A stretch of DNA of 64,000 nt from Escherichia coli (GCF_045037415.1 NZ_CP173438.1), one strand, 5' to 3'; positions 51,385 through 60,945 are shown, counted from the first letter of the stretch. The notes: generated by a model from the sequence alone, not told the origin. Made by a program: numbers and translations.

Positions 51385-52044
51385 AACAGGTGTCCACTAG
51401 TTGATGAAAAGGTGGGCACCTACGTTACCAATACTGGCTTAATGGCTACATACGGCGGTCAGTTTACGCTTACCATGTATCTGGCGAGTGAAGCTTTATG
51501 TCGTGTTCTGGCGTGTCCTGTGTTAGTTAGAACACGCCATCGATGGTCAGCAGGTTCATATTGCACCAGAGCGGATACAGCGTGGTGTTATGTCAGGGCT
51601 GCGCTGTTTACGTGAACACGTGGCGTACGGCCCCGCTTCCTGGCCCTGCTGGGCATGGATCACGGCGCGACAAAGGGGCGACTACCTGGCAGCATGTGTC
51701 CAGCCGGTTCACAATCTGGTGAAGGTTCCTTACGCTCATGGGCCATACTGATAATTCACCAGGCCATCATTTCCAGAGGAAGACGCCGTTTGCGTAGCGT
51801 GACAGTGTCGGACTCTTCAGGGCTGTGGGTAATCAGTTCCGGGGCAAGATAGTCGCAGAGGGTTACGCAGAGAATAGTAACTGGACACTGGATCGATCAA
51901 CCGATCCTTAACTGAGCGGCATGACAGCTTTCTGATGGTTTTTTTTTGATAATCTTCACATTGTGCTTCTTTTCTGTTGGATAATCTTTGTACTTGATGG
52001 TGTACTAGGTATCCCATTATGCAGTTAAGTGAAGGTGATTAAAA

Positions 52045-52962
52045 ATGCAATGTGAATTTAAAGGGGTCATATCAGCATTACCCACTCCTTATGACCAATC
52101 CCAGCAAATCGATATGGAGAGTCTTCGAAAACTGATCCGTTTTAATATCGAACAAAATATTAAGGGATTGTATGTTGGAGGCTCTACTGGAGAAGCATTT
52201 CTTCAGAATGTTGCAGAGCGAGAAAAAATTCTTGAAACAGTAGCCGATGAATCAGATGGAAGACTGACACTTATAGCGCATGTGGGCGGAATCAGTACGG
52301 CAGAAAGCGAGGTACTTGCAAAAGCTGCAAAAAAATACGGATATCATGCTATATCTGCTGTTACTCCATTTTATTATCCTTTTTCATTTGAAGAGCATTG
52401 TATCCATTACAGGAAGATTATTGATTCTGCAGATGGACTTCCGATGGTAGTTTATAATATACCGGCTCTTAGCGGAGTGCGTTTTTCTTTAGATCAGATA
52501 AATGAGCTTGTCACAATACCCAGGGTTTGTGCATTAAAACAGACATCCGGTGATTTATTCCAGATGGAACAAATCAAAAGGAATCATCCAGAGCTTGTGT
52601 TATATAATGGTTACGATGAAATATTTGCATCAGGGTTAATTGCAGGTGCAGATGGGGGAATCGGTAGTACATATAATATAATGGGGTGGCGTTATCTTGA
52701 AATATTTGAAGCAGTCAAAAACAATGATGTGATTAAGGCGAAGGAAATGCAAGTAGCCTGTAACCAGGTTATTGACACTCTTATTCAGAGTGGTGTCCTG
52801 GCAGGTATAAAAACTCTTCTTTACTATATGGGGATTATAAATACTCCTGTATGCAGAAGTCCTTTTTCTCCGGTAAAGGAAAAGAATCTGGATGTATTAT
52901 CAAAACTTGCAGAGCGACTGTTCGAAGAACATGACAGAAACAAAAAAATGAAAATAATCTGA
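52045..52962 (+). CDS. nanA: N-acetylneuraminate lyase paralog (NanA family)
   Basis: 305-aa ORF; GSTGE motif and Schiff-base lysine context ALKQTSGD; high recalled similarity to E. coli NanA, with divergent termini. Confidence 0.85.
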
Positions 52963-52995
52963 ATAATTGCAAGATTGTTATATAGGTGAAAATGA

Positions 52996-53871
52996 ATGAT
53001 AACACTGGCTGTTGATATAGGAGGAACGAAAATTTCAGCGGCGTTGATATCTGATGACGGTTCATTTTTGCTGAAAAAACAGATATCAACACCTCATGAA
53101 AGATGTCCTGACGAAATGACAGGGGCTTTACGTCTACTGGTTTCTGAAATGAAGGGAACAGCGGAGCGATTTGCAGTAGCATCAACAGGGATTATTAATA
53201 ATGGAGTATTGACAGCTCTGAATCCAGACAATCTTGGAGGGCTGAAAGAGTATCCTCTGAAAAATATAATGGAAGATATAACTGGTTTAAATGGAAGTGT
53301 GATAAATGATGCCCAGGCAGCCGCATGGGCAGAATATACAGTTTTGCCGAAAGAAATTTGTGATATGGTTTTTATAACCGTTTCTACGGGGGTTGGAGGG
53401 GGAATTGTAGTTAACAGAAAATTATTAACAGGTGTTTCTGGATTAGCCGGACATGTTGGGCATATATTGTCCGGAGTAACGGATACAGAATGTGGATGTG
53501 GTCGTCGGGGATGCGTTGAAGCGGTTTCATCTGGTCGGGCCATCATGGGGGCAGCAAAAAATAAACTTGCAGGATATAGCACCAAATATATTTTTGAATT
53601 AGCGAGACAGGGATATAAGGAAGCAGAATTTTTGACAGAGCGTTCTGCCAGTACTATTGCTGAATTAATAGTAAGTTTAAAATTACTGCTTGATTGTCAG
53701 GTTGTTGTTGTCGGAGGAAGTGTTGGACTTGCTGATGGGTATGTTCAGAAAGTGTCGAAACATCTTTCCATATATTCTGAAATTTGTAATGTAATGCTGT
53801 TTCCTGCATATTTCAGAAGTGACTCTGGTCTTATTGGTGCAACTCTTTGGGACCGGGATTGTATTACTTAA
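52996..53871 (+). CDS. nanK: N-acetylmannosamine kinase paralog (ROK family, NanK-like)
   Basis: 291-aa ORF; N-terminal DIGGTK and CGCGRRGCVEA zinc motif of ROK kinases; resembles NanK. Confidence 0.8.
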   Translation: MITLAVDIGGTKISAALISDDGSFLLKKQISTPHERCPDEMTGALRLLVSEMKGTAERFAVASTGIINNGVLTALNPDNLGGLKEYPLKNIMEDITGLNGSVINDAQAAAWAEYTVLPKEICDMVFITVSTGVGGGIVVNRKLLTGVSGLAGHVGHILSGVTDTECGCGRRGCVEAVSSGRAIMGAAKNKLAGYSTKYIFELARQGYKEAEFLTERSASTIAELIVSLKLLLDCQVVVVGGSVGLADGYVQKVSKHLSIYSEICNVMLFPAYFRSDSGLIGATLWDRDCIT

Positions 53872-53919
53872 AGTAATACTCCAGTGTATTATAAATCCGC
53901 TATTATTGTGAGGTTTAAT

Positions 53920-59089: not shown

Positions 59090-59124
59090 TATTTATGGTG
59101 ACTACCTGGTGAAGCGTCGAGTAA

Positions 59125-59859
59125 CTATGATGCTTCAATTCGTTTATAAAGGTGATTATACATTAGCTGTTCAGCTTTATCACAATCATGCTCTTTTATG
59201 GCCGTAAGTATTTCAATATGCTGCTGATGGGTTTTTTTGTTATTTTCATATGTCATTTTATTCTTTTCCAGAGGTTTGGCCATTATCAGCCATTCAGAAA
59301 ATGCTGAGTGTATTGTTTTTAATACTTTATTGTCAGGTATATCAGCAAGTATACTATGAAATTCAATATCATATTGAGCATACACTTCGGGGGTTCTCAG
59401 TGAGTTATGATGGATACTGAGCACCTTCTCAAGCCTGTGAATATCCTCAGGCGTTGCATTTTTTGCTGCATATCTTACAAGGTTGGTTTCAAAAAAGATG
59501 CGTAGTCTTTCAAAATCCTTGATGCCATCAGCTGTAGATAAAAAATCTTTAACAATGCCTGATAACCCATTAATGATGGTTTCTGGTGATGGACGGCAGA
59601 CACTGGCTTTTTCTCCCTTGTTATACCGGATTAGCCCTTTATGTCTGAGAGATGATAAAGCCTCTCTGACAGATGGTCTTCCAACGCCAAAGAATGCCAT
59701 AAGTTCACGTTCAGAAGGCAGGTATTCACCTTCCCTTATCTCCTCCTGGCGGATCATTCTTTCAAGCTCTTCGGCAACGATTTCTGAAAGTTTTTTTGTA
59801 ACAATGGGCTTTCTGGTCGTTGTTAGCCCGGGTAACACGGTTTTTTTGTTGTCGGACAT
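59125..59859 (-). CDS. nanR: GntR/FadR-family regulator, NanR paralog
   Basis: 244-aa ORF; …LPSERELMAFFGVGRPSVREALSSL… and following FadR-type domain closely resemble NanR; transcribed divergently from the nanS paralog. Confidence 0.8.
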   Translation of the reverse strand: MSDNKKTVLPGLTTTRKPIVTKKLSEIVAEELERMIRQEEIREGEYLPSERELMAFFGVGRPSVREALSSLRHKGLIRYNKGEKASVCRPSPETIINGLSGIVKDFLSTADGIKDFERLRIFFETNLVRYAAKNATPEDIHRLEKVLSIHHNSLRTPEVYAQYDIEFHSILADIPDNKVLKTIHSAFSEWLIMAKPLEKNKMTYENNKKTHQQHIEILTAIKEHDCDKAEQLMYNHLYKRIEAS

Positions 59860-59955
59860 ATATTGATTTATATGGATTAGAGCAAATGAGTTTTTAATTT
59901 AACACTTTCTTTTAATAATGAAAATATTTAATTAAATCTATTATGTAAAGGGGGA

Positions 59956-60945
59956 ATGATGTATCATCATGATTTTAATGAAAAAATAGGTTTCTGGTAT
60001 GTGATAGCCCTCGCAGGACAGTCTAATGGTATGGCCTACGGTGAAGGTATTCCCCTGCCAGATACACTCGACAAACCCGAGTCCCGTGTAAAACAACTGG
60101 CTCGTCGAAAAACAATCACACCAGGAGGAAAAGAGTGTAAATTCAATGAGATTATTCCGGCAGATCACTGCCTGCATGATGTTCAGGATATGAGTGGATA
60201 TCACCATCCGGCTGCTGATTTGCATAAAGGGGAATATGGTTGTGTCGGACAGGGATTGCATATAGCTAAAAAGTTACTGCCATACATACCTGAGCAAGCA
60301 GGGATATTACTGGTTCCTTGTTGCAGAGGAGGTGCCGCCTTTACTGTTGGAGCTGAAGGTATGTATGTACCTGATACAGGGGCAACAGCTGATGCAATGC
60401 GGTGGGGCACCGGAACAGCACTCTATGAGGACTTAGTAGCCCGGGTTAAGGTAGCTCTGGAATATAACAGAAAGAATAAACTGCTATCTGTCTGCTGGAT
60501 GCAGGGGGAGTTTGATCTTATGTCACCAGATTATGAAAAGCATCCTGACTTGTTTTATCAGATGGTAACTTCTTTCAGGTCTGAGTTATCTGAATACTCA
60601 TCTCAGTGTGTTGGTAATTCGTCAGAAAGAGTTCCATGGTTGTGTGGTGATACAACCTGGTACTGGAAGGAATCTTATCAAAAAGAATATGATTTTATAT
60701 ATGGACATTACAGACAACGGACTGATGATGAAATACATTTTCTCAGCTTTCAGGATAGTAACCGACATGAATTAACTAATGAGCCAGAAGAAGATGCCGA
60801 TGATTTATCTGTCGGGTATCTGGGGTCATCATGGAGGACAGAATTAAGCTGGACAACGTCACAGAGAAGTACACATTTTAATTCAATGGCCAGAAGGGGA
60901 GTTATTGCTGAATGTTATGCGCAAAAAATAAGAAATTATTTGTAG
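59956..60945 (+). CDS. nanS: 9-O-acetyl-N-acetylneuraminate esterase paralog (NanS/YjhS, SGNH/DUF303 family)
   Basis: 329-aa ORF with the GQSN motif block near the N-terminus; resembles NanS. Confidence 0.75.
   Translation: MMYHHDFNEKIGFWYVIALAGQSNGMAYGEGIPLPDTLDKPESRVKQLARRKTITPGGKECKFNEIIPADHCLHDVQDMSGYHHPAADLHKGEYGCVGQGLHIAKKLLPYIPEQAGILLVPCCRGGAAFTVGAEGMYVPDTGATADAMRWGTGTALYEDLVARVKVALEYNRKNKLLSVCWMQGEFDLMSPDYEKHPDLFYQMVTSFRSELSEYSSQCVGNSSERVPWLCGDTTWYWKESYQKEYDFIYGHYRQRTDDEIHFLSFQDSNRHELTNEPEEDADDLSVGYLGSSWRTELSWTTSQRSTHFNSMARRGVIAECYAQKIRNYL

What the first reader, a model, noticed from the sequence alone, without database searches (positions are those of the whole stretch)
51900..60945. 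Second, island-borne sialic-acid catabolic cluster enriched in esterases and lacking nanE
Nine genes form a coherent module: paralogs of nanA (lyase), nanK (ROK kinase) and nanT (MFS transporter), an alpha/beta-hydrolase esterase, nanC (porin), nanM (mutarotase), a second alpha/beta-hydrolase esterase, a divergent nanR-like regulator and nanS (SGNH esterase). There are three predicted esterases of two unrelated folds, and no ManNAc-6-P epimerase. That suggests specialisation for scavenging modified (for example multiply O-acetylated) or non-canonical nonulosonic acids from host glycans, with central steps handed to the core nan operon. The nanA paralog promoter contains GGTGTA/GGTATC half-sites (51999..52013) reminiscent of NanR operator repeats.
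Basis: partly seen in the sequence, partly recalled or inferred. Interest (0 to 1): 0.6.

Follow-up and report, generated by a model that had tools for sequence, protein, structure and literature searches.

The report
Known accessory sialic-acid cluster "nan-9"

Summary
Nine intact genes lie at 52045-60945: nanA, nanK, nanT, an alpha/beta hydrolase, nanC, nanM, a second alpha/beta hydrolase, a divergent nanR and nanS. They are 44-66% identical to the K-12 core proteins, and the window holds no nanE.

The cluster is not new. It is the "nan-9" cluster of Tiwari et al. 2023 (PMC10088187), also called the "nan module" of GI-pheV (PMC11537424). In that work, deleting it delayed growth on Neu5Ac and Neu5Gc. 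It could not replace nanRATEK, and the authors proposed the same esterase hypothesis.

I found four things that neither paper mentions:
- The same gene set occurs in three other diverged versions: the Proteus faecis chromosome, E. coli IncF plasmids, and Citrobacter farmeri/E. coli contigs. All keep both hydrolases and all lack nanE.
- The GGTGTA/GGTATC site is a 15-nt block invariant across all four versions. It sits 46 nt from a CRP-like site, exactly as in the K-12 nanA promoter.
- None of the three esterases has a signal peptide.
- The regulator keeps its zinc and carboxylate ligands, but five effector-contact residues differ from K-12 NanR.

Esterase specificity remains untested. Novelty: already known. 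Interest: low.

The parts
51945..51960 (+). CRP-like site TTTGATAATCTTCACA upstream of the nanA paralog
   Evidence: The half-sites TGA-N6-TCACAT are conserved in all four cluster versions. Its centre lies 46 nt before the operator, the same distance as in the K-12 nanA promoter. Function is inferred, not tested.
51999..52013 (+). NanR-type operator candidate GGTGTA-CTA-GGTATC, two GGTATA-like hexamers in a 9-nt register
   Evidence: The sequence is. The block GGTGTACTAGGTAT[C/A]C is invariant in the E. coli island, Proteus, Citrobacter-type and IncF versions, and Proteus has a third GGTATA. Two GGTATA repeats suffice for high-affinity K-12 NanR binding (KD 25 nM, PMC8012715).
52045..52962 (+). 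nanA paralog, N-acetylneuraminate lyase (305 aa)
   Evidence: It passes NCBIfam NF003164 and TIGR00683 above cutoff and is 66% identical to K-12 NanA. Lys165, Tyr137, Ser47, Thr48, Asp191, Glu192 and Ser208 are conserved. Y172F, F252L and L255I are lineage-specific changes.
52996..53871 (+). nanK paralog, ROK-family N-acetylmannosamine kinase (291 aa)
   Evidence: It scores 420 bits on NF003461 (cutoff 283) but falls below the NanK equivalog cutoff (385 against 450). It is 53% identical to K-12 NanK. The His/Cys zinc motif is conserved.
53920..55392 (+). nanT paralog, sialate:H+ symporter (490 aa from the RefSeq start; the ORF opens at 53884)
   Evidence: It scores 829 bits on NF003024 (cutoff 604) and is 66% identical to K-12 NanT. 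It is 88-92% identical among the four cluster versions, and no other protein in the database exceeds 67%.
55396..56226 (+). First alpha/beta-hydrolase esterase (abh1, 276 aa), starting 4 nt after the nanT stop codon
   Evidence: Pfam assigns Peptidase_S9, BD-FAE and Abhydrolase_3. The PGGGY, GFSAGGH, DD and GGHGF motifs are invariant in six homologues. There is no N-terminal hydrophobic signal segment. Orthologues at 46-54% identity occupy the same position between nanT and nanC in Proteus, Citrobacter-type and IncF versions.
56272..56982 (+). nanC paralog, KdgM-family outer-membrane channel (236 aa)
   Evidence: It is 61% identical to K-12 NanC and RefSeq annotates it as KdgM family. It has a signal-peptide-like N terminus.
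56995..58104 (+). nanM paralog, sialate mutarotase (369 aa)
   Evidence: It scores 499 bits on NF010730 (cutoff 416) and is 44% identical to K-12 NanM. It has a signal-peptide-like N terminus.
58113..58143 (+). 10-bp perfect stem-loop followed by a T-rich tail, in the 49-nt gap between nanM and the second hydrolase
   Evidence: The minimum free energy is -20 kcal/mol for 58100-58156. Proteus has a canonical hairpin plus T-run at the same place. The consensus terminator scan did not list it, because its loop is longer than 8 nt. Its role as a partial terminator is inferred.
58154..59089 (+). Second alpha/beta-hydrolase esterase (abh2, 311 aa)
   Evidence: Pfam BD-FAE matches at 8e-20. It is 37% identical to abh1 and carries the same catalytic motifs. 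It has no signal peptide. Orthologues at 53-57% identity lie next to nanR in the other three versions.
59125..59859 (-). nanR paralog, GntR/FCD regulator (244 aa), convergent with abh2 and divergent from nanS
   Evidence: It scores 273 bits on NF003011 (cutoff 260) and is 52% identical to K-12 NanR. The HTH segment LPSERELMAFF.VGRPSVREAL matches K-12 except at one position. The zinc ligands D172, H176, H222 and H244 and the carboxylate partner R128 are kept. N165P, F168Y, R203K, H214N and S218T differ. The N-terminal extension is 8 residues shorter.
59959..60945 (+). nanS paralog, SASA/SGNH-type sialate O-acetylesterase (328 aa, short form)
   Evidence: It matches PDB 3PT5 NanS at E 9e-125 and Pfam SASA. 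Ser19 (GQSN) and His301 are conserved. It is 56% identical to K-12 NanS and 58% to the catalytic domain of a prophage NanS-p-like protein.
47946..51927 (-). Left boundary: nested and truncated IS66-family elements plus a transposase pseudogene ending about 117 nt before the nanA start
   Evidence: ORFs are and the RefSeq annotation of the identical ST131 genome is. The paper reports IS682 upstream in 63 of 86 isolates.
61052..62325 (+). Right boundary: IS3-family element (IS2-type orfA/orfB)
   Evidence: ORFs are. RefSeq annotates it as 'IS3 family transposase, programmed frameshift'. The paper reports IS2 downstream in 23 of 86 isolates. The IS2 assignment rests on my own knowledge of the InsC/InsD sequences.

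Best explanation
This is the nan-9 cluster (the 'nan module' of GI-pheV). It is a horizontally acquired, IS-bounded accessory module for scavenging host sialic acids.

Proposed path:
1. Sialic acids cross the outer membrane through the NanC paralog.
2. The periplasmic NanM paralog converts the anomer.
3. The NanT paralog imports them.
4. In the cytoplasm any O-acyl groups are removed by the NanS paralog and, probably, by the two alpha/beta hydrolases.
5. The NanA paralog cleaves Neu5Ac or Neu5Gc to ManNAc or ManNGc plus pyruvate.
6. The NanK paralog phosphorylates the product.
7. ManNAc-6-P must then be epimerised by the core NanE, because the module has no epimerase.

Proposed control: expression of the nanA-to-nanM operon is set by a CRP site plus a two-hexamer NanR-type operator. 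The module's own NanR paralog binds it, and the core NanR very likely does too, since the DNA-reading segment is nearly identical.

Status of each step:
- Shown: gene content and family membership, dependence on nanRATEK, and a contribution to growth on Neu5Ac and Neu5Gc. The last two are published experiments.
- Inferred: compartment of each protein, regulation, and above all the substrates of the two alpha/beta hydrolases.
For: - Gene families.
- Divergence from core: 44-66% identity to K-12 proteins, and no NanE in the window.
- Prevalence: present at 99% identity or more in 688 of 5426 complete E. coli genomes, including ST131, ABU 83972 and ATCC 25922. The context is a pheV-type island.
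- Published identity and experiments: PMC10088187 describes nine genes associated with human hosts. A nan-9 deletion delays growth on Neu5Ac by about 3 h and grows slower on Neu5Gc. A nanRATEK deletion cannot grow. PMC11537424 describes an 8,905-bp nan module that is 99.6-99.7% conserved.
- Selection on the whole set: four diverged versions (ExPEC island, Proteus faecis chromosome, IncF plasmids, Citrobacter-type contigs) all keep both hydrolases in the same positions, and all lack nanE. Catalytic motifs are invariant.
- Promoter: a conserved operator block, and a CRP-to-operator spacing of 46 nt identical to K-12 nanA.
- Signal peptides occur only on the NanC and NanM paralogs.
- The closest solved relatives of the hydrolases are carbohydrate acyl esterases: 6A6O, 7DWC, 3HXK and 6MLY.
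Against: - The only measured phenotype is on unmodified Neu5Ac and Neu5Gc, which need no esterase. The esterase part is therefore untested.
- Biolog arrays showed no difference between wild type and mutant.
- No characterised sialate esterase is among the relatives of abh1 or abh2.
- The next homologues (47% identity or less, in Cronobacter and Kluyvera) are stand-alone genes with no nan context.
- The operator as a loose motif is at chance frequency in the window. No conserved element was found in the nanR-nanS intergenic region.
- The cytoplasmic location rests only on the absence of an N-terminal hydrophobic segment.
Confidence: 0.8

Rival explanations
1. The module is mainly a capacity or kinetics booster for ordinary sialic acids. 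Extra copies of the channel, mutarotase, transporter, lyase and kinase, plus a second regulator, shorten the lag and raise flux on plain Neu5Ac and Neu5Gc. On this view the esterases add little.
For: The published deletion phenotype is a delay of about 3 h on Neu5Ac and slower growth on Neu5Gc, neither of which is O-acetylated. The NanA pocket is almost unchanged. NanT is the most conserved protein of the module, at 88-92% identity.
Against: All three esterase genes, with intact catalytic motifs, are retained across four versions that have diverged to 46-66% identity. abh1 sits inside the operon, 4 nt after the nanT stop codon. This argues that the esterases are selected as part of the function. 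The two readings are not mutually exclusive.
Confidence: 0.3
2. The alpha/beta hydrolases act on something other than O-acetyl sialic acids. Candidates are 9-O-lactyl sialic acid, sialic-acid lactones, acetylated non-sialic sugars entering through the KdgM-type channel, or other nonulosonic acids.
For: The best family matches are to the pectin acetylesterase PaeX and the acetylxylan esterase AxeA1, both far below cutoff. The channel belongs to the oligogalacturonate-porin family. Five effector-contact residues of the regulator differ from K-12 NanR in a lineage-specific way, so the inducer may not be plain Neu5Ac.
Against: Every other gene of the module is a sialic-acid gene. The regulator keeps the zinc ligands and the Arg128 carboxylate partner used for Neu5Ac. 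NanA residues that bind the sugar are conserved. No pectin or xylan gene lies nearby in any version.
Confidence: 0.12
3. The cluster is a decaying passenger of the island with no current function.
For: It is flanked by broken IS elements, and it cannot support growth on Neu5Ac without nanRATEK.
Against: All nine reading frames are intact. The module is 99.6-99.7% conserved across lineages and 99% or more identical in 688 genomes. Deleting it gives a growth phenotype.
Confidence: 0.02

Closest known systems
[quoted passage not shown]
   Same: It has the same nine genes in the same order, the same lineages (ST131, ST73, ST69), the same IS flanks, the same 45-64% similarity to the sialoregulon, the same lack of nanE and the same esterase hypothesis.
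   Different: Nothing differs in the cluster itself: this is that cluster. My additions concern relatives outside the island, promoter conservation, protein compartments and the regulator's pocket residues.
E. coli K-12 sialoregulon: nanRATEK-yhcH plus nanCMS
   Same: Seven of the nine proteins are homologues of it. The nanA promoter has the same architecture: a CRP site 46 nt before GGTATA-type repeats.
   Different: - Here one contiguous locus combines catabolic and outer-membrane/periplasmic genes.
- nanE and nanQ (yhcH) are absent.
- Two alpha/beta hydrolases are added.
- The operator has two imperfect hexamers instead of three perfect ones.
- The regulator has a shorter N-terminal extension and five changed effector contacts.
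NanS (YjhS) 9-O-acetyl-Neu5Ac esterase, PDB 3PT5, and prophage NanS-p
   Same: The fold and the Ser19/His301 residues are shared. The island protein is the short form without extra domains, like K-12 NanS.
   Different: It is a third deep lineage: 56% identical to K-12 NanS and 58% to a prophage NanS-p-like catalytic domain, which is itself 57% identical to K-12 NanS.
BD-FAE / PaeX / AxeA1-type carbohydrate acyl esterases (Pfam PF20434, PF07859)
   Same: They share the alpha/beta-hydrolase fold and the PGGG oxyanion motif, GxSxG nucleophile, and Asp and His residues.
   Different: Scores are far below the PaeX and AxeA1 equivalog cutoffs: 168 and 254 bits against 550. There is no signal peptide, and the genes are embedded in a sialic-acid operon. 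The substrate is unknown.

Membership tests
nan-9 / GI-pheV nan module (published E. coli cluster) | Nine contiguous genes in the order nanA, nanK, nanT, axe-like, nanC, nanM, axe-like, nanR, nanS | tested here: met
   ORFs are, families and RefSeq annotation.
nan-9 / GI-pheV nan module (published E. coli cluster) | Found mainly in ST131, ST73 and ST69 at about 12% of E. coli genomes, on the chromosome, with IS elements on both sides | tested here: met
   It is present in 688 of 5426 complete genomes (12.7%) at 99% identity or more, including O25b:H4-ST131 strains. IS66-family and IS3-family flanks are shown. The paper reports 12% of RefSeq genomes.
nan-9 / GI-pheV nan module (published E. coli cluster) | Direct sequence identity to the cluster of the published strains (IMT12185, EC958) | not tested
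   Those strain sequences were not retrieved by name. The match is inferred from 100% identity to many ST131 genomes and from the module length: the paper gives 8,905 bp and the span here is 8,901 bp, from 52045 to 60945.
N-acetylneuraminate lyase (NanA) | Score above the curated equivalog cutoff, with the Schiff-base Lys165, Tyr137 and the Ser47-Thr48 carboxylate motif | tested here: met
   NF003164 scores 449 bits (cutoff 281) and TIGR00683 scores 434 (cutoff 382). The residues are checked.
N-acetylmannosamine kinase (NanK) | Score above the curated cutoffs, plus the ROK zinc motif | tested here: inconclusive
   The subfamily model passes (420 bits, cutoff 283) but the NanK equivalog does not (385, cutoff 450). 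The zinc motif is present.
NanR-regulated promoter (sialoregulon type) | Two or more GGTATA repeats in close register near the promoter, and a regulator with the NanR DNA-binding segment | tested here: met
   Two hexamers, each with one mismatch, lie in a 9-nt register. They are conserved in four versions, with a third repeat in Proteus. The HTH segment is nearly identical to K-12 NanR. Two repeats suffice for K-12 NanR binding. Actual binding was not tested.
NanR-regulated promoter (sialoregulon type) | Physical binding of the regulator and induction by sialic acid | not testable with these tools
   This needs EMSA or footprinting and expression assays.
NanS-type sialate O-acetylesterase (SASA/SGNH) | Homology to solved NanS with the catalytic Ser19 and His301 | tested here: met
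   3PT5 matches at E 9e-125. Both residues are conserved. No NCBIfam model matched.
Sialate O-acyl esterase activity for abh1 and abh2 | Hydrolysis of O-acyl groups on sialic acids | not testable with these tools
   Only context supports it, together with an intact catalytic apparatus. No characterised relative has this activity.
PaeX pectin acetylesterase / AxeA1 acetylxylan esterase | Score above the curated equivalog cutoff | tested here: not met
   Against PaeX, abh1 scores 168 and abh2 254 bits (cutoff 550). Against AxeA1 they score 136 and 157 (cutoff 700).

The most novel reading that the evidence does not exclude
abh1 and abh2 found a new family of cytoplasmic, alpha/beta-fold sialate O-acyl esterases whose positional or acyl specificity complements NanS. 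Candidate substrates are 7- or 8-O-acetyl groups of the oligo-O-acetylated sialic acids typical of human colonic mucin, or 9-O-lactyl groups. The NanR paralog, with five changed effector contacts, would respond to such modified sialic acids. The nine-gene unit would be a self-contained mobile 'front end' that travels between IncF plasmids, the pheV island and Proteus chromosomes and plugs into any host that has NanE.
Probability: 0.35. Interest if true: 0.45.

Novelty: already known. Interest (0 to 1): 0.2.

Why it matters
The cluster was the gene set most strongly associated with human hosts in a published E. coli GWAS, and it is carried by the main pandemic extraintestinal lineages. It is therefore a plausible gut-colonisation factor. 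That significance has already been recognised in print.

What remains open is biochemical:
- what the two alpha/beta hydrolases and the third NanS lineage hydrolyse;
- what the second NanR senses;
- whether the module gives access to the heavily O-acetylated sialic acids of human colonic mucin.

Two of my results make these questions easier to test. The full gene set is conserved in Proteus and on conjugative plasmids, and the operator is conserved across versions. Neither result changes the picture.

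Tried and rejected
- A scan of one genome per species with abh1 found only a 100% match in a contig labelled as a Bacillota MAG. That contig is 99.66% identical to the E. coli island over 11.4 kb, so it is mis-binned and is not a new host.
- A first literature query (sialic acid + pheV + CFT073 + nanA) found nothing. Later queries found the two relevant papers.
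- The loose operator definition (two hexamers with one mismatch or fewer, 2-4 nt apart) is at chance level in the window. I rejected it as evidence on its own.
- Alignment of the nanR-nanS intergenic regions of the four versions showed no conserved block. I therefore make no claim about regulation of nanS or nanR.
- The region upstream of abh2 shows GGTAT-containing elements in the IncF and Citrobacter-type versions, but nothing in the 49-nt gap of this window.
- I checked whether more distant abh2 homologues in Cronobacter, Kluyvera and another enterobacterial genome sit with nan genes. They do not.
- I considered a NanS-p origin for the nanS paralog and rejected it. The paralog is about equally distant from core NanS and NanS-p and lacks the phage-type extra domains.
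- NCBIfam gave no hit for the nanS paralog. Pfam and PDB were needed to place it.
- I did not run structure prediction, because sequence matches to solved esterases were already clear and would not reveal specificity.

Full report
**1. Observation**

The window contains nine intact reading frames at the stated place and in the stated order:

| Gene | Coordinates | Strand |
|---|---|---|
| nanA paralog | 52045-52962 | + |
| nanK paralog | 52996-53871 | + |
| nanT paralog | 53920-55392 (RefSeq start) | + |
| alpha/beta hydrolase abh1 | 55396-56226 | + |
| KdgM/NanC-type channel | 56272-56982 | + |
| nanM paralog | 56995-58104 | + |
| alpha/beta hydrolase abh2 | 58154-59089 | + |
| nanR paralog | 59125-59859 | - |
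| nanS paralog | 59959-60945 | + |

Curated family models support the names. The lyase, transporter, mutarotase and regulator pass their cutoffs. The kinase passes the subfamily cutoff but not the equivalog cutoff.

Pfam places the two hydrolases in BD-FAE/Abhydrolase_3 and the last gene in SASA. The last gene matches the solved NanS structure 3PT5 at E 9e-125. The statement "three esterases of two unrelated folds" is therefore correct.

Identity to the K-12 core proteins is 66, 53, 66, 61, 44, 52 and 56% for NanA, K, T, C, M, R and S. No NanE or NanQ is encoded anywhere in the 64 kb.

The cluster has 39% G+C, set in flanks of about 50-55%.

**2. Where it sits**

The whole window is 100% identical to ST131 chromosomes such as strain p11A. 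Annotation of that genome shows the following order:
- glcA, an IS4 and gsp remnants;
- a group-2 kps capsule locus;
- a yee/CbtA module and Ag43;
- nested IS66-family elements;
- the nan cluster;
- an IS3-family element (IS2 type);
- iha, and further on sat and iutA/iuc.

This is the pheV genomic island of extraintestinal pathogenic E. coli.

**3. It is already described**

Tiwari, van der Putten et al. (BMC Biol 2023, PMC10088187) named exactly this nine-gene set "nan-9". [quoted passage not shown] Their results:
- It is present in 12% of RefSeq genomes, mainly ST131, ST73 and ST69.
- IS682 lies upstream and IS2 downstream.
- Deleting it delays the growth start on Neu5Ac by about three hours and slows growth on Neu5Gc.
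- A nanRATEK mutant cannot grow on Neu5Ac, "probably due to a lack of nanE".
- They proposed that the two axeA1-like genes are new sialyl esterases with alternative deacetylation specificity.

A second paper (PLoS Genet 2024, PMC11537424) treats it as the 8,905-bp "nan module" of GI-pheV in CFT073, UMN026 and EC958. It found the module 99.6-99.7% conserved.

My count agrees with theirs: 688 of 5426 complete genomes, or 12.7%, at 99% identity or more.

**4. What I could add: relatives elsewhere**

The nearest relatives of abh1 and abh2 outside the island led to three further versions of the same module.

| Version | Gene order | Evidence |
|---|---|---|
| Proteus faecis chromosome | nanA-nanT-abh1-nanC-nanM-abh2-nanR(-)-nanS, without nanK | |
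| Small Citrobacter farmeri/E. coli contigs | abh2-nanR(-)-nanS-nanA-nanK-nanT-abh1-nanC-nanM | |
| IncF conjugative plasmids of E. coli (mouse, pig and human isolates), between finO and repA | same as the Citrobacter-type order | |

The Citrobacter-type and IncF order is the same nine genes with the two blocks swapped.

Identity among the four versions, by protein:

| Protein | Identity among versions |
|---|---|
| NanT | 88-92% |
| NanC | 78-87% |
| NanR | 71-85% |
| NanA | 69-82% |
| NanS | 62-78% |
| NanK | 54-68% |
| NanM | 55-76% |
| abh2 | 53-67% |
| abh1 | 46-64% |

Each is clearly further from K-12 than from the other versions.

A database search with NanT shows a gap between this clade (88% or more) and every other enterobacterial NanT (67% or less). 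The donor lineage is therefore not sampled. The low G+C fits a Morganellaceae-like source, but that is only an inference.

All four versions lack nanE. All keep both hydrolases with invariant PGGGY, GFSAGGH, DD and GGHGF motifs. This is good evidence that the hydrolases are selected as part of the module, and that dependence on a host NanE is an ancestral design rather than a loss.

The next homologues of abh2 (47% identity or less) are stand-alone genes without nan neighbours.

**5. Promoter**

As a loose motif it is not above chance (9 observed, 10.2 +/- 3.3 expected).

The 15-nt block is nevertheless invariant upstream of nanA in all four versions, within otherwise poorly alignable DNA. Proteus carries a third GGTATA.

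A CRP-like site (TTTGATAATCTTCACA, 51945-51960) is also conserved. The distance from its centre to the operator is 46 nt, exactly as in the K-12 nanA promoter.

Horne et al. (PMC8012715) showed that two GGTATA repeats suffice for high-affinity NanR binding. The helix-turn-helix segment of the paralog is nearly identical to that of K-12 NanR. Cross-recognition between the two regulators and the two sets of operators is therefore likely. This is inferred, not shown.

The paralog's N-terminal extension, which mediates cooperativity in K-12 NanR, is 8 residues shorter here.

**6. Regulator pocket and lyase pocket**

Of the residues that Horne et al. list as contacting Neu5Ac and zinc:
- The four zinc ligands and Arg128 are kept in all four versions.
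- N165, F168, R203, H214 and S218 are replaced in a lineage-specific way.

The effector is therefore very probably a sialic acid, but possibly not recognised in the same way. I could not map which part of the sugar these residues touch.

In NanA, all catalytic and sugar-binding residues are kept. Only Y172F, F252L and L255I differ. Phe252 lines a hydrophobic surface at the far end of the pocket (PMC3014015).

**7. Compartments and transcripts**

Only the NanC and NanM paralogs have a hydrophobic N-terminal segment. The three esterases do not. De-O-acylation would then occur after import, which in turn requires the NanT paralog to carry O-acylated sialic acids. This chain is inference.

A strong hairpin (58113-58143, -20 kcal/mol) fills the 49-nt gap between nanM and abh2. 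Proteus has a canonical terminator at the same place. In this window abh2 has no room for its own promoter, so it may depend on read-through.

**8. Verdict**

The only open part is the substrates of the two alpha/beta hydrolases and the effector of the second NanR. That part is a published hypothesis which I could not test. I rate interest low (0.2).

The most novel reading still allowed is a new family of sialate O-acyl esterases with complementary specificity, within a mobile plug-in module. I give it a probability of about 0.35 and moderate interest if true.

Noticed in passing
L015 5898-14918; L016 4196-13216 (E. coli IncF plasmids): The same nine genes occur on conjugative IncF plasmids from mouse, pig and human E. 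coli, between finO and repA. The two blocks are swapped: abh2-nanR-nanS comes first, then nanA-nanK-nanT-abh1-nanC-nanM. Nucleotide identity to the Citrobacter-type version is about 76%. This plasmid-borne form is not mentioned in the two papers I read.
   Followed up: partly
L008-L010 7487-15649 (Proteus faecis chromosome): An eight-gene syntenic version lacks nanK. It lies between metalloprotease genes and a two-partner secretion locus, at 33% G+C, similar to its flanks. It may be closer to the native state of the module.
   Followed up: partly
window 58113-58143: A perfect 10-bp stem-loop (-20 kcal/mol for 58100-58156) fills the 49-nt gap between nanM and the second hydrolase. That hydrolase therefore has no room for a promoter of its own in this version, whereas other versions have a longer upstream region with GGTAT-containing elements.
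   Followed up: partly
L004 (JAEYCB010000044.1, labelled as a Bacillota MAG): This metagenome-assembled 'Bacillota' contig is 99.66% identical over 11.4 kb to window 49629-61004. It is almost certainly a mis-binned E. coli island fragment.
   Followed up: yes
window 6640-23840: A group-2 capsule locus (kpsMT, region 2, kpsSCUDEF). Its region 2 (8096-15728) has about 30% G+C and encodes a 1266-aa CDP-glycerol glycerophosphotransferase-family protein. This suggests a glycerol-phosphate-containing capsule rather than polysialic acid. The capsule type was not determined.
   Followed up: partly
window 44000-51927: Several IS66-family elements are nested or truncated here. One interrupts a zinc-ribbon gene and another is itself interrupted. 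The last pseudogene fragment ends only about 117 nt before the nanA start, yet the CRP-like site and the operator are intact.
   Followed up: partly
window 1812-4928 and 25238-26171: Several decayed genes lie around the capsule locus: a frameshifted IS4 transposase, truncated gspK, frameshifted gspL and a frameshifted AbiEii-family toxin gene, according to the RefSeq annotation of the identical genome.
   Followed up: no
window 59125-59859 (NanR paralog): Five of the residues that contact Neu5Ac in K-12 NanR are replaced consistently in all four versions of the module (N165, F168, R203, H214, S218), while the zinc ligands and Arg128 are kept. The N-terminal extension is 24 residues here and 14 in Proteus, against 32 in K-12.
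   Followed up: partly
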